64,000 nucleotides of DNA from Candidatus Saccharimonadia bacterium (GTDB lineage: Bacteria > Patescibacteriota > Saccharimonadia > UBA4664), in assembly GCA_036488585.1 (NCBI GenBank), contig DASXHH010000024.1, forward strand, positions 85-64,084, read 5' to 3'. The position numbers and the translations under genes are program-made. Positions 15,218 through 47,610 of the stretch are shown one piece after another. Position 1 is the first letter of the stretch; every line of letters starts with the position of its first letter. The notes below the pieces were generated by a model, which was given only the letters and a program-made list of their open reading frames with translations, had not been told where the DNA came from and ran no database searches.

Positions 15218-15889
15218 TTACTCCGCGGGCCCGGCAGTGGCATCGTCATCTGGAATGCGAATTTCGATGGTTTTGCCGTTGATAGTTACCGAGATCTTGG
15301 TGCCGGGTGGGCCGACCACGGTGAAACTCGCCCACTCATGGCGGAACGTCAGTGTCCGAGGCTTCACGGGGGATTCCAGGTTGTCGAGTGTGACCTGGCC
15401 TAGCCAGGCCGCCGCCGCGACCATCATGGCATAGGAACCTGACCTCGGTTGGCGAATGCCAGCTTGGGCCAGGATCTCCCGGTTGTAGGGGTCTATATCA
15501 GTCGTACCCCAGCGGCTATCAATGGCGCGGGGATATAGATCGTATGACCCGGCAATTAGAGAGACTTGGTAGGGGCTTAGGGGGCTTCGGCTGAGAGCTC
15601 GGACGGTTTGCGTGTATGGCTGGCCGGCGGCGGTGTCCTTGATGAAGGTGGCACTGAGAAGGGCAGGGTCGAAGCGCTTTTCATTTAGCACTCGGACCAG
15701 CACACCTAGAATGCCGAGTCCGAAGTGGCGTTGGACGGCTTCGCGCCAGCGCGACAGCGAAACTTCGCCCCAGCCGAGTTTTTCGGATGCCTCCTTGATA
15801 GTAAGGCCATAGGCCAGAGCGGCCAGGACCTGCTGAGCTGGCAGTAGCAGGACGCCATCGCGATCTACGACCGCGGCGATTTTTGTCAT
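15218..15889 (-). CDS. Putative HTH (LuxR/GerE-like) DNA-binding protein with an uncharacterised C-terminal domain
   Basis: LTIKEASEKLGWGEVSLSRWREAVQRHFG resembles a LuxR-type HTH. No receiver domain. Confidence 0.4.
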   Translation of the reverse strand: MTKIAAVVDRDGVLLLPAQQVLAALAYGLTIKEASEKLGWGEVSLSRWREAVQRHFGLGILGVLVRVLNEKRFDPALLSATFIKDTAAGQPYTQTVRALSRSPLSPYQVSLIAGSYDLYPRAIDSRWGTTDIDPYNREILAQAGIRQPRSGSYAMMVAAAAWLGQVTLDNLESPVKPRTLTFRHEWASFTVVGPPGTKISVTINGKTIEIRIPDDDATAGPAE

Positions 15890-15986
15890 GGGCTCTCCCG
15901 GGCGTGATGTCGGAGTGCTGGGTTTTGGCTTTCCCTGTGCGGTACTATACCACTATTGCCGAATGGCCTGGCACGTGGTAATAATG

Positions 15987-16184
15987 GGTCTACAGGCGAT
16001 GAAGCAGCTGACACTGCCGAGCCAGGGGAAGAACATCCGTGAGTCTCACGAACTATTAGACCCCCTCGGGACCGCCCGTTATAGCGGAAAATTAAGGCCT
16101 CATCAGGCGAAGCAAGGTGGCACCACGGCAATTATGTCGTCCTTGCGGGAACACGAAACTATTTCGTGAACCGCGAGGTTTTTT
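15987..16184 (+). promoter_or_regulatory. Candidate T-box riboswitch leader of aspS: Stem-I-like helix (GGGTCTA ... TAGACCC), T-box sequence AAGCAAGGTGGCACCACGG (16109-16128), intrinsic terminator (16141-16184)
   Basis: 15 of 19 positions match the T-box consensus AATTAGGGTGGNACCGCGG. The UGGC bulge base is complementary to a G73 discriminator, as in tRNA-Asp/Asn. Terminator hairpin CCTTGCGG ... CCGCGAGG plus TTTTTT sits just before the aspS RBS. Confidence 0.5.
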
Positions 16185-16203
16185 AGTTGTAAGGAGACAA
16201 TAT

Positions 16204-17517
16204 ATGACACGGGTAATTACGAGTGAACTGGGCCATCATGTTGGCGGCGAAGTAACTGTGAAGGGTTGGTTGCATAAGCGGCGCGACCTGGGCGGCATTG
16301 TGTTTTTGGTGGTGCGCGATCGTGGTGGCGTGGTGCAGATTGTGGTGCGTAGCGAAGACGAGCAGAAGAAACTCGACGGTCTGTACGCCGGTACAGTACT
16401 TCAGGTGCGCGGCAAAGTGGTGGCCGAGCCACGGGCGGCCGGTGGAGTGGAGATTCATGAGCCGGAGCTTGAGATAATGATGCCGGTGACGGAGGTGCCG
16501 CCGATTGAGATCGATAAACCGATCGACCATAACCCAGAGAATTTCGACACGCTGTTTGAAAACCGGGTATACAACACGCGCAACCTTACGGAGCAGAAGA
16601 TTTTCCGAGTACGAGCGGGGATTTTGCGCTATATCCGCGAGTACCTGACCGAGCATGAATTTGTAGAAATCCAGACGCCGAAGCTACTGGCCGGGGCAAC
16701 AGAGGGTGGCGCCGAGGTGTTTAAGACTGATTACTTTGGCCAGGAGGCGACGCTAGCACAGTCGCCGCAGCTATACAAACAGATGATGGTGGGGGCGTTT
16801 GAGCGGGTGTTTGAGCTGGCGCCGGCGTTTCGGGCCGAGCCGAGTGTGACCACGCGGCACATGAGCGAGGTGATGATGCTCGACATCGAGATGGGCTTCA
16901 TTGATAAGCATGATGACGTACTGAAGATGACCGAGGACCTAGTGAACTACGTGATGACGAGTGTATACCGGGATTACGCGCCGGAACTGGCGGAGCTGGG
17001 AGCGCCAGAGTTAGTGCTCAAGCCGGACTTTCCGCGCTTTACGGTGGCGCAAATCCACCAGATGTTCTCAGAGGCAACTGGTGAGGACACGACGGACGAG
17101 AAAGACCTCACTCCCGCGGAGGAGCGATGGATCTGCGAGCACGCGAAGGAGAAGCTCGGTTGCGAGGCGGTGTTTGCAACCGATTTTCCGGTGGAGGCCA
17201 AGAAGTTCTACCACATGGTGAATCCGGATGACCCCAAGACGGTACTGTGGGCCGACCTATTGTTTCGCGGTATCGAGATTGCAACGGCGCCCCAGCGTGA
17301 ACACCGCTACGAGGTGTTGGTAAAACAGATGAAGGAGGCGGGTATAGATCCCGAGCACCCCGGTTACCGGTATTACCTGCAGGCGTTTCGGGCTGGTTTG
17401 CCGGCGCATGGTGGATTTGGGTTTGGGGTTGATCGGCTAGTGGAGAAGACGCTGGGACTGAGCAACGTGAAGGAGGCGGTGCTGTTTCCGCGCGATACCA
17501 GGCGCCTCACGCCCTAG
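16204..17517 (+). CDS. aspS: Aspartate--tRNA ligase, type 2 (archaeal/eukaryal-type, ~437 aa; possibly non-discriminating)
   Basis: N-terminal OB fold (VTVKGWLHKRRDLGGIVFLVVRD). Class II motifs (FRAE, GLPAHGGFGFGVDRL). AAGGAGA RBS before the ATG at 16204. Short length with no GAD insertion. Confidence 0.9.
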   Translation: MTRVITSELGHHVGGEVTVKGWLHKRRDLGGIVFLVVRDRGGVVQIVVRSEDEQKKLDGLYAGTVLQVRGKVVAEPRAAGGVEIHEPELEIMMPVTEVPPIEIDKPIDHNPENFDTLFENRVYNTRNLTEQKIFRVRAGILRYIREYLTEHEFVEIQTPKLLAGATEGGAEVFKTDYFGQEATLAQSPQLYKQMMVGAFERVFELAPAFRAEPSVTTRHMSEVMMLDIEMGFIDKHDDVLKMTEDLVNYVMTSVYRDYAPELAELGAPELVLKPDFPRFTVAQIHQMFSEATGEDTTDEKDLTPAEERWICEHAKEKLGCEAVFATDFPVEAKKFYHMVNPDDPKTVLWADLLFRGIEIATAPQREHRYEVLVKQMKEAGIDPEHPGYRYYLQAFRAGLPAHGGFGFGVDRLVEKTLGLSNVKEAVLFPRDTRRLTP

Positions 17518-19565: not shown

Positions 19566-22091
19566 TCAATGGAAGTCTGACATGTGGTCTAGGGTGGTAT
19601 CGAGGTCGATGCCAGGGCCGAGCACAGGCTGCCAGAGATCGCCGACTTGATGGAGGCGATCCGGCATAGTGCGGATGGTGAAGGCTTTGGGATTGAGCTG
19701 GAGATTTACCTCGTCCCATGCTAGCGGGGTGGATACGGTGGCGCCCGGCACCGGTCGAACACAATACGGCGCGGCCATGGTTTGGCCGGCCCGGTTTTGC
19801 AGGAAGTCGAGGTAGACTTTGTGCTCGCGCTTGTCGGGATTGCGCTCCACGCTAGTGATGTCGGGTAGGCGGTCGTGGATTAGGTTCATGAGGATTTGGG
19901 CAAACTGCTTGCTTTGCTCGTAGGTATACTTGGCGCCGAGCGGGATGCAGATATGGAGGCCAGTCTTGCCGCTGGTTTTAACACAGGCGGTAACGTTGAG
20001 CTCGCCTAGAAGGCGATGGGCTTCCTGGGCCACGGTGATTATGGCGTCGAAGCCGATGGTTTTGGCGTCGAGATCGAGCAGGCAGTAATCCGGGCGGTCG
20101 GGGTCCGTAAAGCGGGAATGCCACGGGTTGAGCTCAATGCAGCCGAGGTTGGCCATATAAAGCAGGGTATCGCGGTCGTCCGCGACCAACCAGTGAATGT
20201 CTTTATGGTTTGATTCGGAGTAGAGAGGGACTGTTTTGACCCAATCGGGATGTTTTTCGACATCTTTTTGGAAAAAGCTACCACCCTCAATGCCATTGGG
20301 ATGACGATTGAGAGACTCGGGGCGATCTTTGAGGTATGGCAAAATAGTGTCTGCAATATGATCGTAGTAAGCGATGAGGTCGCCTTTGGTGAGGTGGTCG
20401 GCCGGCCAAAATAGTTTGTCTAGATGTGTGAGCTTAACTCGAGATGCCGTTGCGGTGAGCTCACTCCCCATCGCTGGCTGCGAAGAACCCTTCTCTTCGG
20501 TGTTGCCCTCAACATTGAGAGAGCCGGCTGTGTCGGGTGAACCACCTTGCGCCACGCTAGAGCTGGGTACTTCGCGTACTGCGCTTTTGGCGGGCTTGTC
20601 GTCGCGCAGGCCCTGGAATATGGGTTGGCGGAGGTGGCCGTCGGCGGTCCACTCGGCAAAGCTGATTTCGGCCAGGAGCTGGGGTTCAACCCATTGCACG
20701 GGCGTGTTGGTGGGAAATGATTCCACAAAGGGTGAGCTGGATCGTTCGAGGGGTTTTAGCCGTTCAAGCACTTCACTGAGCGTTTGATCGGTGAAGCCGC
20801 CGCCGCAATGCCCGATGTAATGGAGTTGGCCGTGCGTATCGTAGAGGCCGAGTACGAGCGCGCCGAGGTTTTTGCGGCCACCACGGGGTTCGGTATAACC
20901 GCCGATAACGGCCTCTTGGCGGAGATGGGTTTTTATTTTAAGCCAATCATGGGAACGTTTGCCGGCGCGGTAGGGACTGGAAGCGGCTTTGGCCATGATG
21001 CCTTCGAGCTGTTGGTCTTGAGCTAGCTGGAAAAACCGTTTACCCTCCCCTACCACATGATCGCTGAGGCGGGTGTGTTTGAGGGGTGCTACTAGCTGGG
21101 CAAGCAACTCTTTGCGCCGAGTTAGCGGCAGGTCGCGGAGGTCGTGGCCGCCGGCAAACGGCAGGTCGAAGACATAGTAAACAAGATTGCCGACACCGGT
21201 TTGTTGGTAGTTTTGGAGCGCACTGAAGGTGGAGCGACCATGCTCGTCGATGACCACCATTTCGCCATCGAGAATACAATCTAGACGCAAATCGGCAAGT
21301 TCGTCGGCCACCGGTTGGTAGCGGCTAGTGTAATCTTGGTGGTTGCGGGTGAGCAGCTGTACACGGCCGTCTCGCAGATGGGCCATGATGCGGTAGCCGT
21401 CCCACTTGATTTCGTAGAGCCAGTCGGGATCGTTGGTGGGCTCGTCTGCAAGAGTGGCGAGCATAGGATCAAGCACGGCAGGCTGATCGGCTTTCGGTGC
21501 GTCCGAGAGATCAAGTTGCGGCACATCAAGCCACTGACCGGGCCCTTCGGCGATTTCGCCCATGGTACGGCCGGATAATACCGAACGGTCTTGGTGAGTG
21601 ACGTCAGTTTCGGAAGCGTGTTCATCTTTGTGCTTAATGAGTAGCCAGGAGTTTTCTTCATGGCCATGGGTTTTTACGAGCACCCAGCTACCTGCCAGTT
21701 TGTGGCCATGTAGGATGAACTTGAGCTCACCTTTGTCCAGCCCCGGTGACTGCGGCTCCTCTTCCCATGTACCCTCATCCCAGACCATAACGGTACCGGC
21801 GCCATAGTTGCCCTCTGGAATGGTACCTTCGAAGTCCCGGTACTCTAACGGATGGTCTTCGACCATCATGGCTAGGCGTTTGTCTGCTGGGTTGGGCGAT
21901 GGCCCCTTAGGTACGGCCCAGCTTTTGAGTACGCCACCGAGTTCGAGCCGGAAGTCATAATGCAGGCGGCTGGCTTCGTGTTTTTGGATTACGAAGCGCA
22001 ACGGGCTTCCGACAGCGGATGCATTGGAAGCACCGGAAGGCTCGGGTGTGCTATCGAATCGGCGTTTGCGCTGGTATTCGGAGAGGCCCAT
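19566..22091 (-). CDS. ligD: Multidomain ATP-dependent DNA ligase LigD (3'-phosphoesterase, ligase, polymerase/primase domains; Pseudomonas-type order)
   Basis: PE domain (RFVIQKHEASRLHYDFRLE), ligase KxDG motif (EIKWDGYR), C-terminal LigD Pol domain (LLDLD ... KTSGKTGLHICIPL). 841 aa. Confidence 0.9.
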   Translation of the reverse strand: MGLSEYQRKRRFDSTPEPSGASNASAVGSPLRFVIQKHEASRLHYDFRLELGGVLKSWAVPKGPSPNPADKRLAMMVEDHPLEYRDFEGTIPEGNYGAGTVMVWDEGTWEEEPQSPGLDKGELKFILHGHKLAGSWVLVKTHGHEENSWLLIKHKDEHASETDVTHQDRSVLSGRTMGEIAEGPGQWLDVPQLDLSDAPKADQPAVLDPMLATLADEPTNDPDWLYEIKWDGYRIMAHLRDGRVQLLTRNHQDYTSRYQPVADELADLRLDCILDGEMVVIDEHGRSTFSALQNYQQTGVGNLVYYVFDLPFAGGHDLRDLPLTRRKELLAQLVAPLKHTRLSDHVVGEGKRFFQLAQDQQLEGIMAKAASSPYRAGKRSHDWLKIKTHLRQEAVIGGYTEPRGGRKNLGALVLGLYDTHGQLHYIGHCGGGFTDQTLSEVLERLKPLERSSSPFVESFPTNTPVQWVEPQLLAEISFAEWTADGHLRQPIFQGLRDDKPAKSAVREVPSSSVAQGGSPDTAGSLNVEGNTEEKGSSQPAMGSELTATASRVKLTHLDKLFWPADHLTKGDLIAYYDHIADTILPYLKDRPESLNRHPNGIEGGSFFQKDVEKHPDWVKTVPLYSESNHKDIHWLVADDRDTLLYMANLGCIELNPWHSRFTDPDRPDYCLLDLDAKTIGFDAIITVAQEAHRLLGELNVTACVKTSGKTGLHICIPLGAKYTYEQSKQFAQILMNLIHDRLPDITSVERNPDKREHKVYLDFLQNRAGQTMAAPYCVRPVPGATVSTPLAWDEVNLQLNPKAFTIRTMPDRLHQVGDLWQPVLGPGIDLDTTLDHMSDFH

Positions 22092-22881: not shown

Positions 22882-23019
22882 GTAATAAATGTAGCATAGC
22901 CGCGGGTCGGCGTTTGGGGCATTTTGCCAATTCGCTCGGCAGTTTTGTGGGCGCGCATATGGACTTGGCTGATGGCAACGGATATAGATAGCCAGGTAGC
23001 AGAGGGTCAGGAGGACGAG

Positions 23020-24084
23020 ATGAAGATTGGTTATACGTTATCGAGTGAAGAATTTTCGGCACCGGAGTTGCTTCGTTATGCGGCTGGGGCTGAAGAGGCG
23101 GGATTTGATTTTGTGGGGATCTCGGACCATTTCGCACCCTGGACTGAGACGCAGGGTAACAGTCCGTTTTCATGGACTGTGATTGGCGCACTGTCACAGG
23201 TGACCGAGCGGATGGAAGTATTTGTGGAAGTGGTGTGCCCGATAATGCGATACCATCCGGCGATTGTGGCGCAGGCGGCGGCCACTAGCGCGTCGTTGCT
23301 GGAGGGTCGGTTTGTGCTCGGATTGGGTACCGGCGAGCTGCTGAACGAACACATCGTGGGACGGGGCTGGCCGCGCGTGGGTGTGCGCCGGGAAATGCTG
23401 TCGGAGGCGATCGATATTATTCGCAAGCTATGGCGGGGAGGAATGGTCAGCCACAACGGTCAGTATTTTCAGCTAGATGACGCGAAGATTTACAGTTTGC
23501 CACGTGAGCTGCCGAAGATCGTAGTGTCGGCGTTTGGGCCGAAGGCACTGGCACTAGCTGCGAGTAAGGGTGATGGATTGGTGTCGCTGATGCCGGATCG
23601 TAAGGTGATCGAACAATTCGACGAGCAGGGTGGTGCCGGCAAGCCAAAATATGGCCAAATGCACGTGTGCTACGCGCACGATGAGGACGAGGCGCGGCAG
23701 ACAGCATACAAATATTGGCCGGTGGCAGGTGTGGCACGGCCGCTGATGTCGGAACTGAGGCTGCCGTCGTACTTTCAGGAGGCGGCCGAGACGATCGACG
23801 AGCAGACGGCCACCAAGAGCGTAGTGCTGGGTCCGGACCCACGGACGTACGTGGAGCAGATCCGTAAATTTAGGGAGGCGGGATACGACCACGTGTATAT
23901 GCACCAGATCGGCCCGAACCAACGGGAATTCTTGGAGTTTTGCAGGCGAGAATTGAGGCCGGAGTTGGAGTCGGTGTTGGCGAATGGCGAGCAGGCCGAA
24001 AGTTGGGCTTGGCGAGCTGAAGAGCGGCAGTTGCTGTTTAGGGAGTCACTGGACGAGGCCGATCGTGACGGCGAAGCTAACTAA
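23020..24084 (+). CDS. Luciferase-like monooxygenase (LLM) family flavin/F420-dependent oxidoreductase
   Basis: TIM-barrel LLM signature (GFDFVGISDHF, LGLGTGE). AGGAGG RBS before the ATG at 23020. The ORF-track TTG start at 22924 is less likely. Confidence 0.75.
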   Translation: MKIGYTLSSEEFSAPELLRYAAGAEEAGFDFVGISDHFAPWTETQGNSPFSWTVIGALSQVTERMEVFVEVVCPIMRYHPAIVAQAAATSASLLEGRFVLGLGTGELLNEHIVGRGWPRVGVRREMLSEAIDIIRKLWRGGMVSHNGQYFQLDDAKIYSLPRELPKIVVSAFGPKALALAASKGDGLVSLMPDRKVIEQFDEQGGAGKPKYGQMHVCYAHDEDEARQTAYKYWPVAGVARPLMSELRLPSYFQEAAETIDEQTATKSVVLGPDPRTYVEQIRKFREAGYDHVYMHQIGPNQREFLEFCRRELRPELESVLANGEQAESWAWRAEERQLLFRESLDEADRDGEAN

Positions 24085-32020: not shown

Positions 32021-35000
32021 GTGCTAGTTGGGACTGCCCAGCCTGCTCAGGCCGCGGCCGGCATCAACCAACAGATCAACTTCCAGGGTCGGCTGCTGAC
32101 CGCTAGCGGAGCGGTGGTGGCGGATGGCACTTACAACATGGAGTTCCAAATCTGGCAGGACGGCAATGGCTGCGTTACCGGCTGTACCAGTGCAAATGCC
32201 AACACCAGTAACGGTGGTACCCTGAAGTGGACTGAGGATTGGATCTATGGCACCGGCTCACCTGACAACCGGGTGACCGTTAAGAACGGTTACTATTCAG
32301 TGTCTCTGGGCTCAATCACCTCATTGTCGAGCGTTGACTTCAACCAGAACACCCTGTGGCTATCCATGAACGTTGGTGACACCTCAAACCAGGCCTCCTT
32401 CGCTACTTCCGGTGGTTATCTCATTCCGTTTAAGCGCCTAGCGAGTGCGGTGTACGCTTTGCAGGCGGCTAATTCCAGTGCCCTTGGTAACGTTGCGGCC
32501 GCTAACTATGTGCAATTTGGCACCGGTACCCTCCAGGCTGACAATTCCACCAACTCCAGCATCTATTTCAATAAGACCAACACTGGGAATCTGCTGCAAC
32601 TACAGACCGGCGGCACAAATGCCTTTGTGCTAGATAACTTGGGCAACCTACAATTTGGCAACAACTCAGACAAGACGATCTCGGTGGCCACCGCCAGCTC
32701 GGCCAACGGTAATAGCCTAACGGTGGTGGCTGGTTCGGGCAACGGGACTAGTAAGAACGGCGGGAACCTGGTGTTGGAGGCTGGAGCGGCGACCAGTGGT
32801 GGCACCGGGGGTAGCATTATCGTCAAACCCCTTACCGACTCCACTGCGGCCTTCCAGATCAAAAATGCTGCCGGTAACACTTTCGTCAGCGCCGATTCGA
32901 CGATCAGCAAGCTCACCGTCACGAGCGCCGGCGCGCCGGCCGTCACGGGCTCAGAACTCATAACCACCACTGCCTTCAATAACGCTGCCTGGACATCCGC
33001 CGGCTGGACCACGACCTCTACCACCGCCGCCCATAACACCGGCAACACTTCGCCCCTGTCCACCGGCCAGTTCAGTGCCGTTTCGGGGACTACCTACCAA
33101 GTCACCTTTACCGTCACTGGTAGCCCTACTGCCGGCCAAACCATTACCCCCTGTATCGGCACCACCTGTGGCCAGGCCGTAGCGGGTAACACCACCGGCC
33201 AGGTCGAGCTCATCACGGCCGGGAGCACGCTCACCCCGGCCCTCCAATTCGAGCCCACCACCTCAACCTGGAATGGCACCATCTCCGCCGTCTCGGTCAA
33301 GGCCATCACCGCCGCCTCCGCCGGCCTTTCCGTCACTGATGCTACCTCATCCTTCCCGATTGAGCTACGCAGTAGCGGCGCCTTCGGCAATACCTTTATC
33401 GGCACCTCCTCTGGCTCCTTCGACACCACCGGCTCCCGCAACACCGCCGAGGGCTGGGGCGCCCTGGGCTCCGTCACCACCGGCACCGAAAACACCGCTT
33501 CCGGTTATAACACCCTCCAGGACAACACCACCGGTGGCCAAAACGCGGCCTTTGGTCGCTGGGGTCTACAACTCAACACCACCGGCTCGGGCAATACGGC
33601 GCTTGGCTACGCGGCCGGGCTCAACAACGTCACCGGATCCAACAACACCTTCCTTGGCGCTGGGGCCAGCGAGGACTCATCGGCGGTAGGAGCCCTCCAA
33701 AACGCCACCGCCATTGGAGTGAACTCATTGGTCGCTCAATCCGATAGCCTAGTCCTTGGCTGCATCAACGGTCAAAACAGCTGTACCGCCACCACCAAGG
33801 TCGGTATCGGCACCTCGGCCCCAACCGCCACTCTGGATGTACGCGGCGATACCCAGATCACCAGCGCTTCAACCACTTCCTTCCAGGTGCAGGGTAGCTC
33901 CAGCAGCGCTGTGTTTACAGTGGATACCAGCTCCAACTCCGGCCAGGGCCAGATAATCCTCGGCAAGCCTTCCACTAACAAGGGCGTGATCGTCTTTGAT
34001 GATTCGGTCTCGGCTAATACCGCTTCGCTGAGCGTCGCTGGCAACTCTAATGGTGGCGGTGCTTTTACCTTGCCCAACCTGTCCGGCGCCCAGACCATCT
34101 GCACAAGCAACGCTACCAGTTGTAGCGGTACCTATCTGACGGCTGGTAACTATCTGCAGCAGGCGCCGTCTAGTAGTGCGACCAACACCATCTCGCCGAC
34201 CGGCGCTTCCACCACCGGCCTCATAGTGCAGCAAACCTCCACTTCCGGCGGAGCACCCGACATCTTTGATGTTTACGGCACCTCGAGTGCTACCAAGTTT
34301 ATCCAGGTAACTGGAACTGCATCCAACGCCGGTGCAATTAATATTACGTCCCAAGGGGCCGGCAACGCCGTAACCATTCAAGGTGCGGGCAACGTTAACC
34401 TCGTCACTAATAGTGCCAGCACTGGTACGATCGTTAAGAACTCCACCAACTCCACTTCCGGCTTCCAGGTTCAGCGATCTACCGGTGACACTCTGCTGGG
34501 AGTTGATACCGTTAACAGCAACGTGAACATTCAGGGTGCCAACCTGGTGACGCCTTATGGTGGTCTCGGGATCTACCAGAACTTGCTCAAGTATACCGAG
34601 CAGTTTGATCAGGCGGGTACTTGGGCTGTTTCCGGAACTTTGACAGTGGCGGCAAATTCGACTTCAGCGCCGAATAACCAGACGACTGCGGATACACTTC
34701 CGGCCACTAGTTCCGGTGCTAGCGTCGCTCAGACCTCAACAACCGCCGTGGCCAACACAAACTTTACCTTTAGCGTCTGGATGAGAACCTCCAGTGGTAC
34801 GCAAAACGCGAACCTGCGGATTGATGGCTCCGGTGGTGGCACCGGCACATCGAGCGCGGCGACAGTGACCGCCAACTGGCAGCGCTTTAGTGTGACGCAA
34901 AACCTTAACCCGGGTTCGGGCTTCAGTGGCAATGCCAAGGTGCTGATTTTCCCCGGTACCACCGCTGGCACTGGAACAGTTATAGCCTGGGGGGCTCAGC

Positions 35001-38000
35001 TTGAGCAGGCCAGCACACCTTCAAACTATGCGGCCATGGGCAATGGTGTTTCTACCGCCAGCCAGGTGTTTGGCCAAGTGGTCGACGGCTCGGCATTGTT
35101 CCGCACCTCAAGTGATAACTCGGCTGCCTTCCAGATCCAAAATTCCGCGGGTACAAATCTGTTTTCGGCCAATACGAGCACCGGTCAGCTGGTGGTTGGT
35201 AGTTCCAATAGCCTTAACGGTACGCTGGTGTTTGCCGATAGCGGCGATTCGCAGACCATTACAGTGGGCACCGATAGCAGTGGATCGCTCAATGTGGCGG
35301 TGCCAGGCGGCGGCGGTACCAACCTGCCTCAACTCGATTATGCCGCGCACTTTGCGCAGACAGCTGCAAACACGCCAGCTCTTCCATGGAGCAACACCTA
35401 CAACGTCAATGGTGCCAATAATCCTAACGGTAATACCGATACATATTTGCTCGTGGGGATTATTGACCATAATAGTTGCACAAATACAATCTCTTCCGTG
35501 CAATTCAACTCTACCTCCATGACGCTGATAGGATCCAATACCAAGGGTACCGGGAGCGCTACCTGTTACTACTTGTACGGTTTGGCTGGTGCTACTGGGT
35601 CCCATTCATTGACTATTTCTGGTGCTGGGACCGCTGAAATATATTCAGTCAATGTCACGAGTTGGTATAACGTCAACCAAACGACCCCGTACGGTAGCTT
35701 CCAAACTGCTGCCGGTGGTTTTTCACAGGCGCCAGCGATTAACTATAATTGGCCCGCTGGGCGCGTAGTGGTGGATAACATGAGTGCGTATTTGTATATA
35801 ACTAACGTTTCGACGTCGAGTCTTTGCCAGATGGGACCGGTGGCGCCGCAAAAAGTTGCAGCTGTCGGTGGCGCTACCTCCGAGGTATGTGTTAACGGTA
35901 CTGGTGGAGATATTTTTAGCACTGACGGGGCAAGCTACGCTGATAGCAACGGTAGGAATATGCAAATGGCCTGGACATCGGCCGGTGCTATTGCGACGGG
36001 GTTTTCAGACCCCAGTAATAGTAATGACACTGTGGGTCAGTGGGTTACAGGTGCGGTTGACCTGATAGGTGATACTGGCGGTACGGCAACATTTGGCAAT
36101 AGCAATACCGGTGGTACGTCAGATGGTGGCAACGATGTGAAACAATGGGAGTGTAGCAGCTATGTCTCAACCGCTACTGGTACCGTTTCGTCAATAACCT
36201 CGCAATTTGCCAGCATAGATACGGCTGCCACGGGGGCTGATGGCGTTAACCCGGCGAAAGATGCCGAAGCAGCCGTCTATAGCAACTTTGCTGGGAATAA
36301 CAATATCGGCGGTGAGCCAGGACGTCCGTTGGCGCAAAGCTCTATTGTGCAGTTGGTGGCAGGGGCGAATACATTCAATATGACCAGCAGTACGCAGGTA
36401 TACGCCGGTACACAGTACTGGTTGTGCATAACTAGTAACACAAACTCGGCTACAAGCAACACACTCTTGGAGGATGCGAACCAAAATGTGCCCTATGAAT
36501 ACTTTAAAGCTAGCCCAAGTTCATGGAGTTTTGGTAGCTGGCCGAGCAATATGTCGTCAACTACAAATATAGGTACTTTTGTAGGAGAAGGTTTAGAAAT
36601 TTATGCAACCGTAACTAGGAATACTCCTTCCGGAACGGTAATGAATCTATCTAACTCCGGCCAACTTACGCTCCAAAATGCTAGCGATAGCACAAGCGCC
36701 TTCCAGGTTCAAAACGCCAGCGGTAACGCCCTGATTAACGTCGATACCCAGGACAACCAGGTAAACATTAACGGTGCGCTGTCTGGCTCGGTCGTGCGTT
36801 ATGCTGATTACGGCACTGGAAGTGGTACATTTAATATTCCGATAGTTTCAGCCGGGGTGGGATACAATCTTTCGAGCAATTTCTACACCTCTTCGGGAGG
36901 TGGAACCTACATGAGCCAGTTCAATATTACGGGGTTGCCACAGGTCGAGGGGACGATTGTCTACATAATGACCACTGCTAATAAGCAGACGACCGCTACA
37001 AGCGGCAATGATGAGGTTCAGGTTGAGATAAACGGTACGCTAATAAGCAGTTTGACAGCGTTGGCTGCGTCCGGCACCGGTACTGGTACGACCCATGAGG
37101 ACTACACTCTGATGTATAGCGGGGGGGTTTGGCACATCGTGGGTTATGGACCGGATGCGACCAACGGTACCACCGGTGGCACAAATACAAACGGAACTTT
37201 TGACGGTGCTGACTATGCTGAATACATTGACTACAGCGGTGACATTGCGCCGCAGCCAGGCGACGTACTGACTGTGGGCGGCAACTTTACAACGGTGAAG
37301 GACTCAACGGGAGCATACGACTCACATCTCATGGGCGTAGTGTCTACTGCCCCGTACACGGTGGGTGGTAAGGACGATGGACATGCGGTGGTCTTGGCGC
37401 TAACTGGACGTGTGCCTGTTAAGGTATCGGCAGAAAACGGAGCGATTTCGCCCGGGGACCCACTCACCTCTTCGTCTCTTCCGGGGGTGGCTATGAAGGC
37501 GACCAAGCCGGGTAATATTATTGGAACGGCGCTTGAGGCCTACGACGGCACGGAAACGAGTAACGAAATTAATGTTCAGCTGCATGTGGGCTACGATGAC
37601 CCAACAGCCGGTCAATTGGGTGACCAGATCCAAGGCGATATGCAGCTATCAGGTAACCTTAATATAGGCGGCAGCGCTACGATCGGGGGCGATTTAACAG
37701 TAGCTGGGACTACGACCACTAAAACGCTTGTGGTGACGGGCGACGCGAATGTGAAAGGGGGTTTGACGGTCGGCGGTACAACTAACCTCGCCGATATCAG
37801 TGTAAACGGTCATATTGTTACCGGCGGCAGCACGCCGACGATTAGTGCGCTCACGGCGGCTGGTTTGCAGGGCGCTTCAGCGCAGGTGGATGGCAATGAT
37901 ACGTCAGGTACAGTCACCATTACTACTGGGAGCGCCGGGGCGAGCGGTATGACGCCGGGCGATTTGGCGCAACTTACGTTTAATAAGGCATTTGGCGCCG

Positions 38001-38152
38001 CGCCGCGGGCGGTAGTATCGGCCAACAATGCGGCTAGTGCGCAGCTGGGTGTGTTCACTACCAGTATTACCCCACAATCGTTCAACTTGTCGGTGGCCGG
38101 TAAGCCCGAGCCGAATACTACTTACGTCTTTACTTATATCGTGCTGCAGTAG
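32021..38152 (+). CDS. Giant (2043 aa) secreted Gly/Thr/Ser/Asn/Ala-rich repeat protein, predicted beta-helix/fibre-like adhesin or surface protein; true start probably upstream at a non-canonical codon
   Basis: Single 6.1-kb ORF. Recurrent ~30-aa motif [ST]xAFQ[IV][QK]N[AS]xG(N/T)x(L/F)... at least six times. In-frame upstream codons encode SSRKLLTALALAATGLVWVGVLVGTAQPAQA|AAG (signal peptide) but contain no ATG/GTG/TTG. Confidence 0.8.
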   Translation: MLVGTAQPAQAAAGINQQINFQGRLLTASGAVVADGTYNMEFQIWQDGNGCVTGCTSANANTSNGGTLKWTEDWIYGTGSPDNRVTVKNGYYSVSLGSITSLSSVDFNQNTLWLSMNVGDTSNQASFATSGGYLIPFKRLASAVYALQAANSSALGNVAAANYVQFGTGTLQADNSTNSSIYFNKTNTGNLLQLQTGGTNAFVLDNLGNLQFGNNSDKTISVATASSANGNSLTVVAGSGNGTSKNGGNLVLEAGAATSGGTGGSIIVKPLTDSTAAFQIKNAAGNTFVSADSTISKLTVTSAGAPAVTGSELITTTAFNNAAWTSAGWTTTSTTAAHNTGNTSPLSTGQFSAVSGTTYQVTFTVTGSPTAGQTITPCIGTTCGQAVAGNTTGQVELITAGSTLTPALQFEPTTSTWNGTISAVSVKAITAASAGLSVTDATSSFPIELRSSGAFGNTFIGTSSGSFDTTGSRNTAEGWGALGSVTTGTENTASGYNTLQDNTTGGQNAAFGRWGLQLNTTGSGNTALGYAAGLNNVTGSNNTFLGAGASEDSSAVGALQNATAIGVNSLVAQSDSLVLGCINGQNSCTATTKVGIGTSAPTATLDVRGDTQITSASTTSFQVQGSSSSAVFTVDTSSNSGQGQIILGKPSTNKGVIVFDDSVSANTASLSVAGNSNGGGAFTLPNLSGAQTICTSNATSCSGTYLTAGNYLQQAPSSSATNTISPTGASTTGLIVQQTSTSGGAPDIFDVYGTSSATKFIQVTGTASNAGAINITSQGAGNAVTIQGAGNVNLVTNSASTGTIVKNSTNSTSGFQVQRSTGDTLLGVDTVNSNVNIQGANLVTPYGGLGIYQNLLKYTEQFDQAGTWAVSGTLTVAANSTSAPNNQTTADTLPATSSGASVAQTSTTAVANTNFTFSVWMRTSSGTQNANLRIDGSGGGTGTSSAATVTANWQRFSVTQNLNPGSGFSGNAKVLIFPGTTAGTGTVIAWGAQLEQASTPSNYAAMGNGVSTASQVFGQVVDGSALFRTSSDNSAAFQIQNSAGTNLFSANTSTGQLVVGSSNSLNGTLVFADSGDSQTITVGTDSSGSLNVAVPGGGGTNLPQLDYAAHFAQTAANTPALPWSNTYNVNGANNPNGNTDTYLLVGIIDHNSCTNTISSVQFNSTSMTLIGSNTKGTGSATCYYLYGLAGATGSHSLTISGAGTAEIYSVNVTSWYNVNQTTPYGSFQTAAGGFSQAPAINYNWPAGRVVVDNMSAYLYITNVSTSSLCQMGPVAPQKVAAVGGATSEVCVNGTGGDIFSTDGASYADSNGRNMQMAWTSAGAIATGFSDPSNSNDTVGQWVTGAVDLIGDTGGTATFGNSNTGGTSDGGNDVKQWECSSYVSTATGTVSSITSQFASIDTAATGADGVNPAKDAEAAVYSNFAGNNNIGGEPGRPLAQSSIVQLVAGANTFNMTSSTQVYAGTQYWLCITSNTNSATSNTLLEDANQNVPYEYFKASPSSWSFGSWPSNMSSTTNIGTFVGEGLEIYATVTRNTPSGTVMNLSNSGQLTLQNASDSTSAFQVQNASGNALINVDTQDNQVNINGALSGSVVRYADYGTGSGTFNIPIVSAGVGYNLSSNFYTSSGGGTYMSQFNITGLPQVEGTIVYIMTTANKQTTATSGNDEVQVEINGTLISSLTALAASGTGTGTTHEDYTLMYSGGVWHIVGYGPDATNGTTGGTNTNGTFDGADYAEYIDYSGDIAPQPGDVLTVGGNFTTVKDSTGAYDSHLMGVVSTAPYTVGGKDDGHAVVLALTGRVPVKVSAENGAISPGDPLTSSSLPGVAMKATKPGNIIGTALEAYDGTETSNEINVQLHVGYDDPTAGQLGDQIQGDMQLSGNLNIGGSATIGGDLTVAGTTTTKTLVVTGDANVKGGLTVGGTTNLADISVNGHIVTGGSTPTISALTAAGLQGASAQVDGNDTSGTVTITTGSAGASGMTPGDLAQLTFNKAFGAAPRAVVSANNAASAQLGVFTTSITPQSFNLSVAGKPEPNTTYVFTYIVLQ

Positions 38153-45336: not shown

Positions 45337-45723
45337 CTAAGTCTTTGCTGTGGATTTCTTACGGCCGGAACCCATGGTGACCTTCTTGCCGCGCTTGGTG
45401 CGGGCGTTGGTCTTGGTGCGCTGGCCGTGTACCGGCAGGTTGGCCTTGTGGCGCAAGCCGCGATACGAGTTGATCTCTTTGAGGCGCTTGATGTTTAGGC
45501 TGACCTCGCGCTGAAGATCGCCCTCCACACGGAGGTTCTTGTCGATGTGTTCACGCAGTTTGCTCACCTCGGGTTCGGTCAGGTCCTTCACCCGGGTGTC
45601 GGGGTTAATATTGGTAGCCGCCAGAATGTTGCGGCTTGCGGTGATACCAATGCCGTAGATGTAGGTGAGGGCCACCTCTACGCGCTTGGCATCGGGAACG
45701 TTAACTCCAGCAATACGTGCCAT
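45337..45723 (-). CDS. rpsM: 30S ribosomal protein S13
   Basis: [26 protein letters not shown] is canonical S13. Confidence 0.95.
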
Positions 45724-45839
45724 TAACCCTGCCTCTGCTTATGACGAGGCTTCACAGAGCAAATCACACGCACTACACCTTCGCGGCGCACGACTTTGCA
45801 CTGGTCGCAAATTTTCTTAACGCTGGCGCGTACCTTCAC
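45723..45839 (-). CDS. rpmJ: 50S ribosomal protein L36 (38 aa, GTG start); absent from the ORF track
   Basis: Manual translation: (M)[37 protein letters not shown]. The stop overlaps the rpsM ATG (TAATG). Confidence 0.85.
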
Positions 45840-46296: not shown

Positions 46297-47610
46297 TCAG
46301 TACTGCTCGTAGCTAGTGGTGATGGCCTGGGCTTCGATCTGCTTGAGGGTCTCGATGGCCACTGAGACGACGATGAGGAGCCCAGTGCCGCCGAAGGTGA
46401 GCACCTGGCTCTTGGTGAAGCCCTGGGCGATGAACGGCAGAATGGCGATGATGCCGAGGCCGACGGCGCCGGCAAGTGTGATGCGGTTGATGACGCGCTT
46501 GAGGTAGCTGGCGGTCTGGCTGCCGGGCCGGATGCCGGGAATGAAGCCGCCCTGCTTCTGGAGGTTTTCGGCGATATCTTTGGGGTTGAAGACGACTGAG
46601 GTGTAGAAGTAGGTGAAGCCAACTACCAGAACGAAGTAGGCTACCGCGTAGAACCAGCCGTTGGGCGAGAACAGAGTGACGGTGTTTTTGGCGATACTGG
46701 CCACCCAGGGCGTCTTGGCATTGGACAGGACCTGGCCAAGCAAGCCCGGTACGCTCAGGAAGGCCAGCGCGAAGATGATCGGGATAACGCCGGCAGTAAT
46801 GACGCGTAGAGGCAAGTGGGTGTCGACGCCCGCGTATACGCGGTTGCCGCGGGTACGTTTGGCATATGACACCGGAATGTTGCGGGTGCCTTCGTTGAGC
46901 AAAACCACGAACCCGATGATGAGCAGGGTGGCCGCGAGAAACAAGATGAGAGTGATGATCTTGCCGGCGTCGCCTGAAGCCAGGGTCGCGAACTGGCCAG
47001 CCGAGGTGGGCAGTCGGCTTATGATGCCGCAGAAGATGATGAGCGAGATACCATTACCAATCCCCTTTTCGGTGATGATTTCACCCATCCACATCAGCAG
47101 CATGGTGCCAGCGGTAATGGTCATAACCATGAGTAGCCACTGGAACAGGTTAGGATGGCCGATAATATCGGTATTGTTGACGCGCAATGAGGTTTGCTGA
47201 ATGAGTAACACCATGCCGAACGATTGAATGAGCGCTAGCGGCAGGGTGAGCATGCGAGTGTATTGGTTGAGCTTGCGGCGGCCCATTTCACCCTCTTTGG
47301 AGAGCGATTCGAAGTGCGGAATAACCTGCTGGAGTAACTGAATAATAATTGAGGCGTTAATGTACGGCCCGACACCCATCATGATGATGGAGAAGTTGGC
47401 TAGTGCGCCGCCGGAAAAAACGTCAGCAAAGCCCAGTACCTTGTTGGACTCGAAGATGCTCTTGAGAAAGTTGGCGAGAGCAGCGTTATCTGGGACCGGT
47501 ACGGGGACGTGTGCAAGGAAGCGGAAAATAACCAGGAGCCCGAGTACAGTGAGTACGCGACGCCGCAGATCAGGAGAACGATAGATCTGCTTGAGGCTCG
47601 TTAGGTTCAT
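46297..47610 (-). CDS. secY: Preprotein translocase subunit SecY
   Basis: 437-aa 10-TM protein with canonical SecY motifs. Directly downstream of rplO. Confidence 0.95.
   Translation of the reverse strand: MNLTSLKQIYRSPDLRRRVLTVLGLLVIFRFLAHVPVPVPDNAALANFLKSIFESNKVLGFADVFSGGALANFSIIMMGVGPYINASIIIQLLQQVIPHFESLSKEGEMGRRKLNQYTRMLTLPLALIQSFGMVLLIQQTSLRVNNTDIIGHPNLFQWLLMVMTITAGTMLLMWMGEIITEKGIGNGISLIIFCGIISRLPTSAGQFATLASGDAGKIITLILFLAATLLIIGFVVLLNEGTRNIPVSYAKRTRGNRVYAGVDTHLPLRVITAGVIPIIFALAFLSVPGLLGQVLSNAKTPWVASIAKNTVTLFSPNGWFYAVAYFVLVVGFTYFYTSVVFNPKDIAENLQKQGGFIPGIRPGSQTASYLKRVINRITLAGAVGLGIIAILPFIAQGFTKSQVLTFGGTGLLIVVSVAIETLKQIEAQAITTSYEQY

What the first reader, a model, noticed from the sequence alone, without database searches (positions are those of the whole stretch)
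15987..16203. Candidate T-box riboswitch controlling a type-2 AspRS
About 300 nt of untranslated leader precede aspS. It contains a 7-bp helix base (GGGTCTA ... TAGACCC) spanning ~85 nt (Stem-I-like), a T-box-like sequence AAGCAAGGTGGCACCACGG (UGGC bulge; C complements the G73 discriminator of tRNA-Asp/Asn), and a strong intrinsic terminator (CCTTGCGG ... CCGCGAGG + U6) ending 20 nt before the RBS. A type-2 AspRS in bacteria is often non-discriminating (Asp-tRNA-Asn route), so the specifier could be GAC/GAU or AAC/AAU. Both GAC (16010) and AAC (16053) occur in the Stem-I region and I cannot resolve which.
Basis: partly seen in the sequence, partly recalled or inferred. Interest (0 to 1): 0.55.

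Follow-up and report, generated by a model that had tools for sequence, protein, structure and literature searches.

The report
Short-stem Asp T-box with terminator
The leader of the aspartyl-tRNA synthetase gene in this Saccharibacteria (CPR) contig is a genuine tRNA-sensing T-box riboswitch, but an unusual one: it shows its GAC (Asp) codon on a very short first stem with no tRNA-elbow platform, yet ends in a transcription terminator, a combination the literature I could read assigns only to translational ileS elements of Actinobacteria.

Summary
Rfam's T-box model matches full-length (48 bits, E=1.9e-7 window-wide) but below its gathering score (93), because about 74 model positions of distal Stem I are missing. 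Orthologous leaders from 20 other loci share the layout, with strong covariation. Stem I is really a K-turn plus a 4-bp helix (15995-16023) whose apical loop CUGACA carries the specifier GAC (16010-12) and the usual following purine. That settles GAC against AAC. Stem II with its S-turn, the IIA/B pseudoknot with F-box, Stem III, the T-box bulge UGGC and an antiterminator (-12.8 kcal/mol) competing with a terminator (-21.5; U6) are all present; the SD stays free. The decoding half therefore resembles the 'ultrashort' actinobacterial ileS T-boxes, described as translational and Ile-only. The output half is a classical transcription attenuator, the amino acid is Asp and the host is Patescibacteria. 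Relatives also control valS and a bacterial-type aspS, and some lack the Stem II domain as well. Verdict: a real T-box and a new variant of a known kind. No experiment was done, and the tRNA-Asp gene was not available.

The parts
15956..15984 (+). Predicted sigma-70-type promoter: -35 TTGCCG (15956-61), 17-nt spacer, extended -10 TGgTAATAA (15976-84); implied transcript start about 15990-15992
   Evidence: Consensus scan. The -35 and TGnTAnnnn -10 sit at the same distance (about 9-11 nt) upstream of the Stem I C-stem in most of 15 relatives. Inferred, not mapped.
15995..16023 (+). Ultrashort Stem I: C-stem GGC/GCC (15995-97 / 16021-23), 3-nt bulge GAU, tandem G.A/A.G (16001-02 / 16019-20) forming a K-turn, 4-bp helix GCAG/CUGC (16004-07 / 16014-17), apical loop CUGACA (16008-13). 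No AG bulge, distal loop or elbow platform.
   Evidence: Rfam alignment replaces 74 model positions with 4 nt. Same layout in 21 sequences. Covariation: 95.2% paired against 70.5% shuffled, 5 of 7 pairs with double changes, score 0.646 against 0.164, 0/500. RNAalifold finds it unguided.
16010..16013 (+). Specifier GAC (Asp codon, pairs with anticodon GUC) plus the conserved 3' purine A16013
   Evidence: GAC at the same loop position in all 18 short-Stem-I aspS leaders. AUC in two ileS leaders and GUC in a valS leader at the same position, each matching its downstream gene.
16024..16066 (+). Stem II: base helix AGGGG/CCCCU (16024-28 / 16062-66), S-turn-type internal loop AAGAAC (16029-34) / UUAGAC (16056-61), distal hairpin 16038-16050
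   Evidence: Base helix 100% paired with 4 of 5 pairs showing double changes. The AAGAAC...UAGAAC motif is shared with actinobacterial ileS leaders L087 and L110. The distal part is variable and deviates in the window.
16067..16087 (+). Stem IIA/B pseudoknot: IIA CGGG/CCCG (16067-70 / 16075-78), F-box CCGUUA (16076-81), IIB CCGC (16072-75) pairing with GCGG (16084-87)
   Evidence: IIA invariant. IIB complementarity of 3-5 bp at offset 4-5 nt after IIA, or 6 bp at offset 2 in L009, in 11 of 14 leaders, with different sequences (CCGC/GCGG, UGCGC/GCGCA, CUGC/GCAG, UGAGC/GCUCA, GUUC/GAAC, CAUGU/ACAUG, UGCAA/UUGCA, UCACCG/UGGUGA). Each case alone is only weakly significant.
16094..16109 (+). Conserved purines AAG (RAG motif) plus Stem III GCCU/AGGC (16097-16100 / 16105-08)
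   Evidence: Rfam alignment. A hairpin at this position in all type-A relatives with RAG just 5' of it. MAFFT did not align it well enough for pair counts.
16112..16146 (+). Discriminator: T-box sequence AAGGUGGCACCACG; antiterminator helix A1 (16112-17 / 16141-46), 7-nt bulge UGGCACC (16118-24; UGGC would pair with the tRNA 3'-GCCA), helix A2 (16125-29 / 16136-40)
   Evidence: Rfam posterior probabilities near 1 here. A1 and A2 100% paired with compensatory A-U to G-C changes. Energy -12.8 kcal/mol.
16141..16184 (+). Intrinsic terminator: outer helix 16141-48 / 16171-78, inner helix 16152-58 / 16162-68, U6 16179-84. Its 5' arm is the 3' arm of antiterminator helix A1, so the two are mutually exclusive.
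   Evidence: -21.5 kcal/mol alone, -26.3 with A2, against -12.8 for the antiterminator. Terminator-like site in the consensus scan. An equivalent hairpin plus U4-U7 in 18 of 20 CPR-type relatives and in none of 4 actinobacterial comparators.
16191..16206 (+). Shine-Dalgarno AAGGAG (16191-96) and ATG (16204-06), downstream of the terminator and unpaired in both conformers
   Evidence: Sequence; MFE fold; the public gene call uses the same start.
16204..17517 (+). aspS: 437-aa archaeal-type AspRS of the non-discriminating family
   Evidence: NF003483 aspartate--tRNA(Asn) ligase 473.5 bits (cutoff 353) and TIGR00458 377 bits (cutoff 368.4). Best solved relative 1N9W 'non-discriminating and archaeal-type' AspRS2, E=1.9e-97.

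Best explanation
This is an Asp-specific T-box riboswitch that controls aspS by transcription attenuation. Transcription starts near 15990 (inferred). The nascent RNA folds a K-turn and a 4-bp helix that shows GAC-A in a 6-nt apical loop. Stem II's S-turn, positioned by the IIA/B pseudoknot, is expected to clamp the codon-anticodon duplex formed with tRNA-Asp (anticodon GUC), as in the solved actinobacterial ileS decoding modules. There is no Stem I platform, so the tRNA elbow is not contacted. If the bound tRNA is uncharged, its 3'-GCCA pairs with UGGC (16118-21) and stabilises the weak antiterminator (16112-46). RNA polymerase then reads through into aspS. If the tRNA is charged, that pairing is sterically prevented, the much more stable terminator (16141-78 plus U6) forms, and transcription stops 20 nt before the ATG. 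Shown here: sequence and structure conservation, covariation, mutual exclusivity, energetics, the specifier-gene match and a free SD. Inferred from homology with studied T-boxes: tRNA binding, charge sensing and the role of Stem II. The enzyme is of the non-discriminating family, so one sensor of the tRNA-Asp pool probably governs supply of both Asp-tRNA-Asp and Asp-tRNA-Asn.
For: Rfam RF00230 full-length match, 48 bits, E=1.2e-9 (leader) and 1.9e-7 (window). Orthologous leaders with the same domain order in Saccharibacteria and other Patescibacteria. Unguided RNAalifold reproduces Stem I, Stem II, IIA and the A1/A2 antiterminator with 12 compensatory pairs. Pair counts: 98.5% paired, 11 pairs with double changes, 0/500 shuffles. 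Stem I over 21 sequences: covariation 0.646 against 0.164, 0/500. Specifier, UGGN and downstream gene vary together: GAC/UGGC/aspS (18 of 18), AUC/UGGU/ileS, GUC/UGGU/valS. Terminator -21.5 (-26.3 with A2) against antiterminator -12.8 kcal/mol, sharing 16141-46. Terminator plus U-tract in 18 of 20 CPR-type relatives. Positionally conserved promoter just upstream of Stem I. aspS identity.
Against: The score is below Rfam's gathering threshold (48 against 93). The elbow-binding platform, reported as functionally essential for transcriptional T-boxes (PMC7583486), is absent, so efficient co-transcriptional tRNA capture is unproven. No tRNA-Asp gene is available from this genome to confirm anticodon GUC and G73. 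The window's Stem II distal part departs from the relatives: 2 of 3 upper-helix pairs are broken. The whole-leader MFE is not unusual against shuffles (z = -1.27), as expected for a bistable RNA but not supportive. No experiment has been done.
Confidence: 0.87

Rival explanations
1. It is a translational T-box, like the actinobacterial ultrashort class: tRNA binding frees the Shine-Dalgarno sequence, and the hairpin plus U-run is incidental.
For: The decoding module (apical specifier, Stem II S-turn, IIA/B) is the one so far described only for translational ileS T-boxes. L087 and L110 show that arrangement with the SD adjacent to the discriminator.
Against: The SD AAGGAG (16191-96) lies 6 nt beyond the U-tract and is unpaired in both conformers. 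The alternative helix ends exactly at a U6 run. 18 of 20 CPR-type relatives keep a hairpin followed by U4-U7, while 4 actinobacterial comparators have none.
Confidence: 0.04
2. The element senses tRNA-Asn, either through the AAC at 16051-53 or through GAC with a G.U wobble to anticodon GUU, or it senses both tRNA-Asp and tRNA-Asn, because the enzyme charges both.
For: AspRS belongs to the non-discriminating family. tRNA-Asp and tRNA-Asn usually both carry G73 (general knowledge), matching UGGC. GAC could pair with GUU using one G.U.
Against: AAC lies in the variable distal part of Stem II and is not conserved (alignment columns 70-72 read CGG, UAA or GGU in relatives). GAC sits at the canonical specifier position in all 18 aspS leaders. 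Stem II's purine string is reported to monitor codon-anticodon geometry (PMC7778990; PMC7583486), which argues against wobble acceptance.
Confidence: 0.04
3. It is a decayed, non-functional T-box remnant that lost distal Stem I, with aspS expressed constitutively or from another promoter.
For: Sub-threshold Rfam score. Many related Saccharimonadia have no aspS leader at all, so the element is dispensable in the lineage.
Against: Compensatory changes maintain every helix across AspRS lineages only 38-70% identical. The terminator, U-tract and promoter are kept. The same short Stem I layout is kept with different codons for ileS and valS. A relic would not covary.
Confidence: 0.04
4. One reading: a long Stem I closed by GGGUCUA/UAGACCC (15986-16063), with the specifier somewhere inside.
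For: The 7-bp complement exists.
Against: Chance-level (68% of shuffles have at least one such repeat). Not conserved (46.9% against 45.6%, 218/500). Absent from the MFE and from RNAalifold. The 3' arm belongs to covarying Stem II. The 5' arm overlaps the predicted transcription start region.
Confidence: 0.01

Closest known systems
Actinobacterial 'ultrashort (US) Stem I' ileS T-box riboswitches (M. smegmatis, M. tuberculosis, N. farcinica; PDB 6UFG, 6UFM; TBDB 'class II')
   Same: Stem I reduced to a K-turn plus a short helix with the specifier in the apical loop followed by a purine. No elbow-binding double T-loop platform. Stem II with AAGAAC/UAGAAC S-turn, IIA/B pseudoknot with F-box, Stem III, and a UGGN bulge. 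The layout is column-for-column the same as in ileS leaders L087 and L110.
   Different: Described as translational (SD sequestrator), as responding only to tRNA-Ile and controlling only ileS, and as actinobacterial. The window element has an intrinsic terminator with U6 and a free SD, specifier GAC with UGGC, controls aspS, and comes from Saccharibacteria (Patescibacteria).
Canonical transcriptional T-box leaders (Rfam RF00230; e.g. B. subtilis tyrS)
   Same: T-box sequence, 7-nt bulge, antiterminator/terminator competition, K-turn at the base of Stem I, Stem II/IIA/B/III order, specifier matching the regulated aaRS gene, default-off logic.
   Different: Lacks the internal specifier loop, the AG bulge and the distal loop (interdigitated T-loop platform). 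About 74 model positions are missing, so the score is 48 bits against the gathering score of 93.
aspS T-boxes with long Stem I in Actinomycetota, Ktedonobacterales and Firmicutes (loci L054, L058, L070, L074, L031, L032, L051, L078)
   Same: Same regulated gene family (archaeal-type aspS) and a T-box discriminator core; a GAC specifier was read by eye in L058 only.
   Different: Long Stem I. The actinomycete ones have no terminator and appear, by eye, to sequester the SD. That is the inverse pairing of Stem I length and expression platform.
glyQS T-boxes (no Stem II domain)
   Same: Relevant only to the minimal relatives (L033, L037, L044, L050, L056), which also lack Stem II and IIA/B.
   Different: glyQS keeps the long Stem I platform; the minimal CPR elements lack both. 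The window element itself keeps the Stem II domain.

Membership tests
T-box leader (RF00230) | Covariance-model score at or above the curated gathering score | tested here: not met
   48 bits against 93. The match is still full-length with E=1.2e-9 (leader) and 1.9e-7 (64-kb window). The deficit is the missing distal Stem I.
T-box leader (RF00230) | Conserved 14-nt T-box sequence AGGGUGGNACCGCG forming a 7-nt bulge between helices A1 and A2 | tested here: met
   AAGGUGGCACCACG at 16115-28, 12 of 14 matches; both differences are compensated in their pairing partners (A-U for G-C). A1 and A2 100% paired with covariation.
T-box leader (RF00230) | Antiterminator mutually exclusive with a more stable terminator (or sequestrator) | tested here: met
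   Shared strand 16141-46; -12.8 against -21.5 (-26.3 with A2) kcal/mol; U6 tail.
T-box leader (RF00230) | Stem I with basal K-turn (GA motif) and a specifier codon followed by a purine, matching the regulated gene | tested here: met
   GGC-GAU-GA...GA-GCC K-turn; GAC plus A in the loop; aspS downstream.
T-box leader (RF00230) | Stem I distal AG bulge and distal loop forming the tRNA-elbow platform | tested here: not met
   Stem I is 29 nt in total; Rfam alignment shows 4 nt in place of 74 model positions.
T-box leader (RF00230) | Stem II S-turn, Stem IIA/B pseudoknot with F-box, Stem III with flanking purines | tested here: met
   AAGAAC/UUAGAC; CGGG/CCCG plus CCGUUA; IIB CCGC/GCGG with covarying partners in relatives; AAG-GCCU...AGGC.
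T-box leader (RF00230) | Cognate tRNA with matching anticodon and discriminator base; tRNA-dependent antitermination | not testable with these tools
   No tRNA-Asp gene in the window or the fetched loci. G73 and GUC are general knowledge of bacterial tRNA-Asp. Function needs experiment.
Ultrashort-Stem-I (class II, translational ileS) T-box | Specifier in the apical loop of a short Stem I lacking the platform, with the Stem II domain present | tested here: met
Ultrashort-Stem-I (class II, translational ileS) T-box | Expression platform is an SD sequestrator/antisequestrator (translational control) | tested here: not met
   Terminator hairpin plus U6; SD 6 nt downstream and unpaired.
Ultrashort-Stem-I (class II, translational ileS) T-box | Ile specifier, responds to tRNA-Ile, regulates ileS, found in Actinobacteria | tested here: not met
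   GAC with UGGC; aspS; closest relatives are Ca. Saccharimonadia MAGs.
Non-discriminating archaeal-type AspRS (downstream gene) | Membership of the aspartate--tRNA(Asn) ligase equivalog family | tested here: met
   NF003483 473.5 bits (cutoff 353); TIGR00458 377 bits (cutoff 368.4); best PDB 1N9W.
Non-discriminating archaeal-type AspRS (downstream gene) | Anticodon-domain residues permitting tRNA-Asn (His rather than Trp at T. kodakarensis position 26; no Lys at 85; residue rule recalled from memory of Feng et al. 2003); presence of GatCAB and absence of AsnRS | tested here: inconclusive
   The alignment shows His at the W26 position and Ala at the K85 position, where 1N9W has His and Pro. 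No gatA, gatB or asnS among the window's large ORFs; the rest of the genome is unavailable.

The most novel reading that the evidence does not exclude
The window element is one member of an undescribed, Patescibacteria-wide class of transcription-terminating T-boxes that work without any tRNA-elbow platform. These are ultrashort Stem I elements with apical specifiers for Asp and Val, not only Ile. In some lineages (L033, L037, L044, L050, L056) they have also lost Stem II and IIA/B, leaving T-boxes with only 26-69 nt between Stem I and the T-box core, which would hold tRNA essentially by 3+4 base pairs, perhaps helped by insertions in helix A2. If these function as they appear to, two rules fall: that co-transcriptional T-boxes need the Stem I platform for fast tRNA capture, and that the Stem II domain is indispensable when Stem I is truncated.
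Probability: 0.4. Interest if true: 0.72.

Novelty: new variant of a known kind. Interest (0 to 1): 0.55.

Why it matters
(1) Mechanism. Reviews state that transcriptional T-boxes need the long Stem I platform to capture tRNA before the polymerase reaches the terminator, and that short Stem I's belong to translational, reversible switches. A natural family pairing the short decoding module with a terminator makes that kinetic argument directly testable.

(2) Scope. The ultrashort class is described as ileS/tRNA-Ile only. Asp and Val examples show that the module is a general decoding solution.

(3) Annotation. All relatives score 28-54 bits against Rfam's threshold of 93, and TBDB's short-stem model was run only on Actinobacteria, so these elements are invisible to standard pipelines. 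A dedicated covariance model would probably recover many more in CPR genomes, where little RNA-based regulation has been described.

(4) Biology. Many Saccharibacteria are episymbionts that take amino acids from hosts. A tRNA-Asp charge sensor on a probably non-discriminating AspRS would tie both Asp and Asn decoding capacity to aspartate supply.

Tried and rejected
- AAC as specifier: rejected, because it lies in the non-conserved distal part of Stem II.
- SD sequestration: rejected for the window and for 18 of 20 CPR relatives.
- Rfam at gathering threshold: no T-box reported; only the E-value mode shows it.
- tRNA-Asp/Asn genes: none in the window (Trp, Thr x2, Tyr only) and none in 48 CPR loci.
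- gatCAB and asnS: not among the window's large ORFs (L1, LigD, F420-dependent oxidoreductase, SecY, RarA).
- My first regex for the IIA hairpin was faulty and was redone with explicit hairpins.
- MAFFT placed the 6-nt/7-nt loop length difference in the 3' strand, so loops were trimmed to the common 6 nt for helix counting only. L110 remains shifted by one column in that alignment.
- Stem III could not be pair-counted because MAFFT misaligned it.
- Primary papers Sherwood 2015 and 2018, Vitreschak 2008, Battaglia 2019 and the IUBMB 2019 review are not held. The novelty claim therefore rests on reviews and later papers. From memory, the Sherwood 2015 abstract says 'many' (not all) of the atypical ileS leaders were predicted to be translational, so a few terminator-coupled short ileS leaders may already have been noted.
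- Literature searches for T-box with Saccharibacteria, Patescibacteria or 'candidate phyla radiation': no papers found.
- No class-specific covariance model was built, because its seed would include the window.
Full report
**What is in the sequence.** The finding lies in the 314-nt gap (15890-16203) between a divergent 223-aa ORF (15218-15889, minus strand) and an ORF whose SD-preceded ATG is at 16204.
- the T-box-like AAGCAAGGTGGCACCACGG at 16110-28;
- terminator arms at 16141-48 and 16171-78, followed by T6 at 16179-84;
- GAC at 16010-12 and AAC at 16051-53;
- the 7-bp complement GGGTCTA (15986-92) / TAGACCC (16057-63).

The downstream protein (437 aa) passes the curated cutoffs of two NCBIfam equivalogs for aspartate--tRNA(Asn) ligase (NF003483: 473.5 bits against 353). 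Its best solved relative is T. thermophilus AspRS2, deposited as 'non-discriminating and archaeal-type' (1N9W, E=1.9e-97). The public gene call on the source contig (JGI Ga0376663_0000128, 93.5 kb) uses the same start.

**Is it a T-box?** At Rfam's gathering thresholds the window yields only four tRNAs. In E-value mode RF00230 matches 15990-16147 over the whole model (1-219) at 48 bits, with E=1.2e-9 for the leader and 1.9e-7 for the 64-kb window. This is below the gathering score of 93. The alignment shows why: 74 model positions of distal Stem I are replaced by 4 nt, while the K-turn, Stem II, IIA/B, Stem III and the T-box/antiterminator align with high posterior probability. The match is significant but truncated, so comparative evidence was needed.

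**Relatives.** A scan of one genome per GTDB species with the AspRS returned 80 loci. The closest (58-70% identity) are nearly all labelled Candidatus Saccharibacteria/Saccharimonadia MAGs, so the window is from a Saccharibacteria (Patescibacteria/CPR) genome.
- A T-box core lies about 90-150 nt upstream of aspS in most of 16 Patescibacteria loci: Saccharibacteria, Paceibacterota and a Kaiserbacteria locus. Exceptions are L053 (about 2 kb upstream, two ORFs before aspS) and L062/L064 (200-315 nt upstream). Thirteen of the 16 have the short Stem I analysed below.
- A core is also found in Ktedonobacterales, four Actinomycetota and a Firmicute.
- Many other Saccharimonadia have no leader at all; there aspS abuts an upstream gene.
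- Six close relatives plus L047 align with the window over the entire leader.

**Structure.** RNAalifold, run unguided on that alignment, returns the canonical T-box order: a short Stem I, the Stem II base and upper helix, IIA, and an antiterminator with a 7-nt bulge. Twelve pairs show compensatory changes. Pair counting on the same structure gives 98.5% of cells paired (90.4% in shuffles), 11 pairs changed on both sides, and 0 of 500 shuffles reaching the covariation score. Slid controls reach at most 42.6% paired.

A perfect 7-bp inverted repeat occurs in 68% of dinucleotide shuffles of this intergenic region. Its 3' arm is part of the covarying Stem II.

A -35 (TTGCCG, 15956-61) and an extended -10 (TGgTAATAA, 15976-84) recur at the same distance upstream of Stem I in most relatives. 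This places the transcript start near 15990-92.

**Stem I and the specifier.** In 21 leaders Stem I has one fixed layout:
- a 3-bp C-stem;
- a 3-nt bulge;
- tandem G.A/A.G, giving a K-turn;
- a 4-bp helix;
- an apical loop reading N-N-codon-A(-N).

In the window this is GGC-GAU-GA-A-GCAG-CUGACA-CUGC-C-GA-GCC (15995-16023). The helices covary: GCAG/CUGC, GCGG/CCGC, CCCG/CGGG, CCGA/UCGG, CCUG/CAGG; and for the C-stem GGC/GCC, AGC/GCU, ACC/GGU, GAC/GUC. Of all cells, 95.2% are paired against 70.5% in shuffles, 5 of 7 pairs change on both sides, and the covariation score is 0.646 against 0.164 (0/500), with slid controls at most 0.19. Loops were trimmed to a common length for that count.

The codon position reads GAC in all 18 aspS leaders of this type, each with UGGC in the T-box bulge. 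It reads AUC with UGGU in two ileS leaders and GUC with UGGU in a valS leader. The AAC lies in the non-conserved distal part of Stem II.

**Rest of the decoding module.**
- Stem II has a covarying 5-bp base (16024-28/16062-66) and the purine-rich AAGAAC/UUAGAC internal loop, which matches the S-turn motif of the actinobacterial ileS leaders L087 and L110.
- IIA (CGGG/CCCG) carries the F-box CCGUUA (16076-81).
- The IIA loop can pair with the segment beginning 5 nt downstream (CCGC/GCGG). In 11 of 14 leaders an equivalent 3-6 bp pairing is found, at the same 4-5-nt offset in 10 of them (offset 2 in L009), with different sequences. Each case alone is weak (P about 0.005-0.84); the recurring position with changing sequence is the argument.
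- Stem III (16097-16108) is preceded by the conserved RAG purines.

**Expression platform.** The antiterminator (A1 16112-17/16141-46; bulge UGGCACC; A2 16125-29/16136-40) evaluates to -12.8 kcal/mol. The terminator reuses 16141-46 and evaluates to -21.5 kcal/mol alone, or -26.3 together with A2, and runs into U6. The SD (16191-96) lies beyond the U-tract and is unpaired in both states.

Across relatives, 18 of 20 CPR-type short-Stem-I leaders have a -18 to -44 kcal/mol hairpin that starts in the A1 3' strand and ends at U4-U7. L033 and L050 have only interrupted U-tracts. The four actinobacterial comparators (two ileS with short Stem I, two aspS with long Stem I) have none, and place the SD next to the discriminator. 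The regulatory output is therefore transcription attenuation.

**Mechanism.** By homology with studied T-boxes:
- Uncharged tRNA-Asp would pair its anticodon GUC with GAC, clamped by the Stem II S-turn.
- Its 3'-GCCA would pair with UGGC, stabilising the antiterminator and allowing readthrough into aspS.
- Charged tRNA cannot make the second contact, so the terminator wins.

The sequence-level steps are shown here. tRNA binding and charge sensing are inferred.

**Comparison with what is known.**
[quoted passage not shown] A 2026 review repeats this (PMC12990946).
- TBDB searched its short-stem model only in Actinobacteria and in sequences the Rfam model had already detected (PMC7778990). It lists Firmicutes, Actinobacteria, Chloroflexi and Deinococcus-Thermus as the main T-box phyla.
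- Full-text searches pairing T-box with Saccharibacteria, Patescibacteria or CPR found nothing.
- Rfam scores the window's relatives at 28-54 bits, and a minimal one not at all.

The window element is therefore a T-box by every defining feature except the distal Stem I platform and the curated score. It shares its decoding module with the ultrashort ileS class, but differs from that class in expression platform, amino acid, regulated gene and phylum. I rate it a new variant of a known kind.

One caveat applies. Sherwood et al. 2015 and Vitreschak et al. 2008 could not be read. From memory, the 2015 abstract says 'many', not all, of the atypical ileS leaders are translational.

**Beyond the window.** The single metagenome scan added three further terminator-coupled short-Stem-I leaders:
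- two upstream of a short (465-aa) bacterial-type aspS (L111, L132);
- one upstream of valS (L163).

Among all such leaders there are three layouts:
- the full decoding module, as in the window;
- IIA/B without an S-turn Stem II (L008, L009, L039);
- minimal elements with neither (L033, L037, L044, L050, L056), with only 26-69 nt between Stem I and the T-box core, often with long insertions in helix A2.

The minimal layout conflicts with the reported need for Stem II when Stem I is truncated. It is the most interesting lead.

**Not settled.**
- No tRNA-Asp or tRNA-Asn gene was available.
- gatCAB and asnS are not in the window.
- The residue rule for non-discrimination is recalled from memory; His at the T. 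kodakarensis W26 position and no Lys at the K85 position are consistent with it.
- No experiment supports termination or tRNA dependence.

Interest is 0.55. As a T-box the element is ordinary, but as a transcriptional one without the elbow platform in a CPR genome it is unexpected, and it gives a direct handle on the kinetic role of the Stem I platform.

Noticed in passing
L033:2819-2990, L037:2791-2960, L044:2769-2975, L050:2839-2975, L056:2783-2985: 'Minimal' terminator-coupled T-boxes upstream of aspS in Saccharibacteria and Paceibacterota MAGs: ultrashort Stem I (GAC-A loop), then only 26-69 nt to the T-box core, with no Stem II S-turn, no IIA/B pseudoknot and (in L037) no Stem III. This conflicts with the reported essentiality of the Stem II domain when Stem I is truncated.
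   Followed up: partly
L039:2887-2935, L044:2880-2930, L056:2892-2925: Long insertion in antiterminator helix A2 carrying a conserved near-palindromic hairpin, GACGUCCGAC(G/A)UC. It occurs in leaders that lack the S-turn Stem II and might substitute for lost tRNA contacts.
   Followed up: no
L008:2821-2985, L009:2815-2985: Close relatives of the window's aspS leader with a variant T-box core (GUUGGCACC instead of GGUGGCACC), a 12-nt apical loop still containing GAC-A, and an IIA/B pseudoknot but no S-turn Stem II. Rfam scores are only 28-29 bits.
   Followed up: partly
L163 (minus strand; T-box core at oriented position 241): Val-specific short-Stem-I T-box (apical loop CUGUCA, UGGU) with a terminator plus U5, upstream of valS. 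The ValRS is split into 536-aa and 122-aa ORFs and matches the valS models in two stretches that skip roughly 130 model positions in the middle of the protein.
   Followed up: partly
L111:2520-3920, L132:1545-2942 (minus): Bacterial-type AspRS of only 465-466 aa (NF001750 matched in two stretches, so an internal part of the 590-position model appears to be missing), also under GAC short-Stem-I T-boxes. The same leader type therefore serves two unrelated aspS lineages.
   Followed up: partly
L054, L058, L070, L074 (about 60-120 nt upstream of aspS): Actinomycetota archaeal-type aspS leaders have long Stem I's, no terminator, and by eye an SD-sequestering helix (e.g. GCCUCU...AGAGGAGGC in L058). 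This is the inverse pairing of Stem I length and expression platform to the CPR leaders.
   Followed up: partly
L003, L006, L007, L012, L013, L016, L018, L022, L023, L025-L027 (last about 40 nt before aspS): Many Saccharimonadia lack any aspS leader. aspS follows an upstream gene whose 3' end carries a recurring GTG(A/G)TAGAATA motif that looks like an extended -10 promoter. T-box control of aspS is therefore patchy within the class.
   Followed up: no
window 45691-45783 (-): Sub-threshold Rfam match to the Alpha operon ribosome binding site leader (RF00140, 34.7 bits against gathering score 38, E=2.9e-4), inside the block of short minus-strand ORFs downstream of the SecY gene (46297-47610, -).
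   Followed up: no
window 19566-22091 (-), 22924-24084 (+), 32021-38152 (+): The contig encodes a three-domain LigD (NHEJ ligase), an F420-dependent LLM-class oxidoreductase (TIGR03557, 420 bits) and a 2043-aa ORF with no NCBIfam match at E<=1e-10. Window GC is 56.7%. I would not have expected these in a Saccharibacteria genome (general knowledge), though the AspRS relatives are nearly all Saccharimonadia.
   Followed up: no
window 15218-15889 (-): The divergently transcribed 223-aa ORF next to the T-box promoter has no NCBIfam match and no Pfam hit on record in the public gene call.
   Followed up: partly
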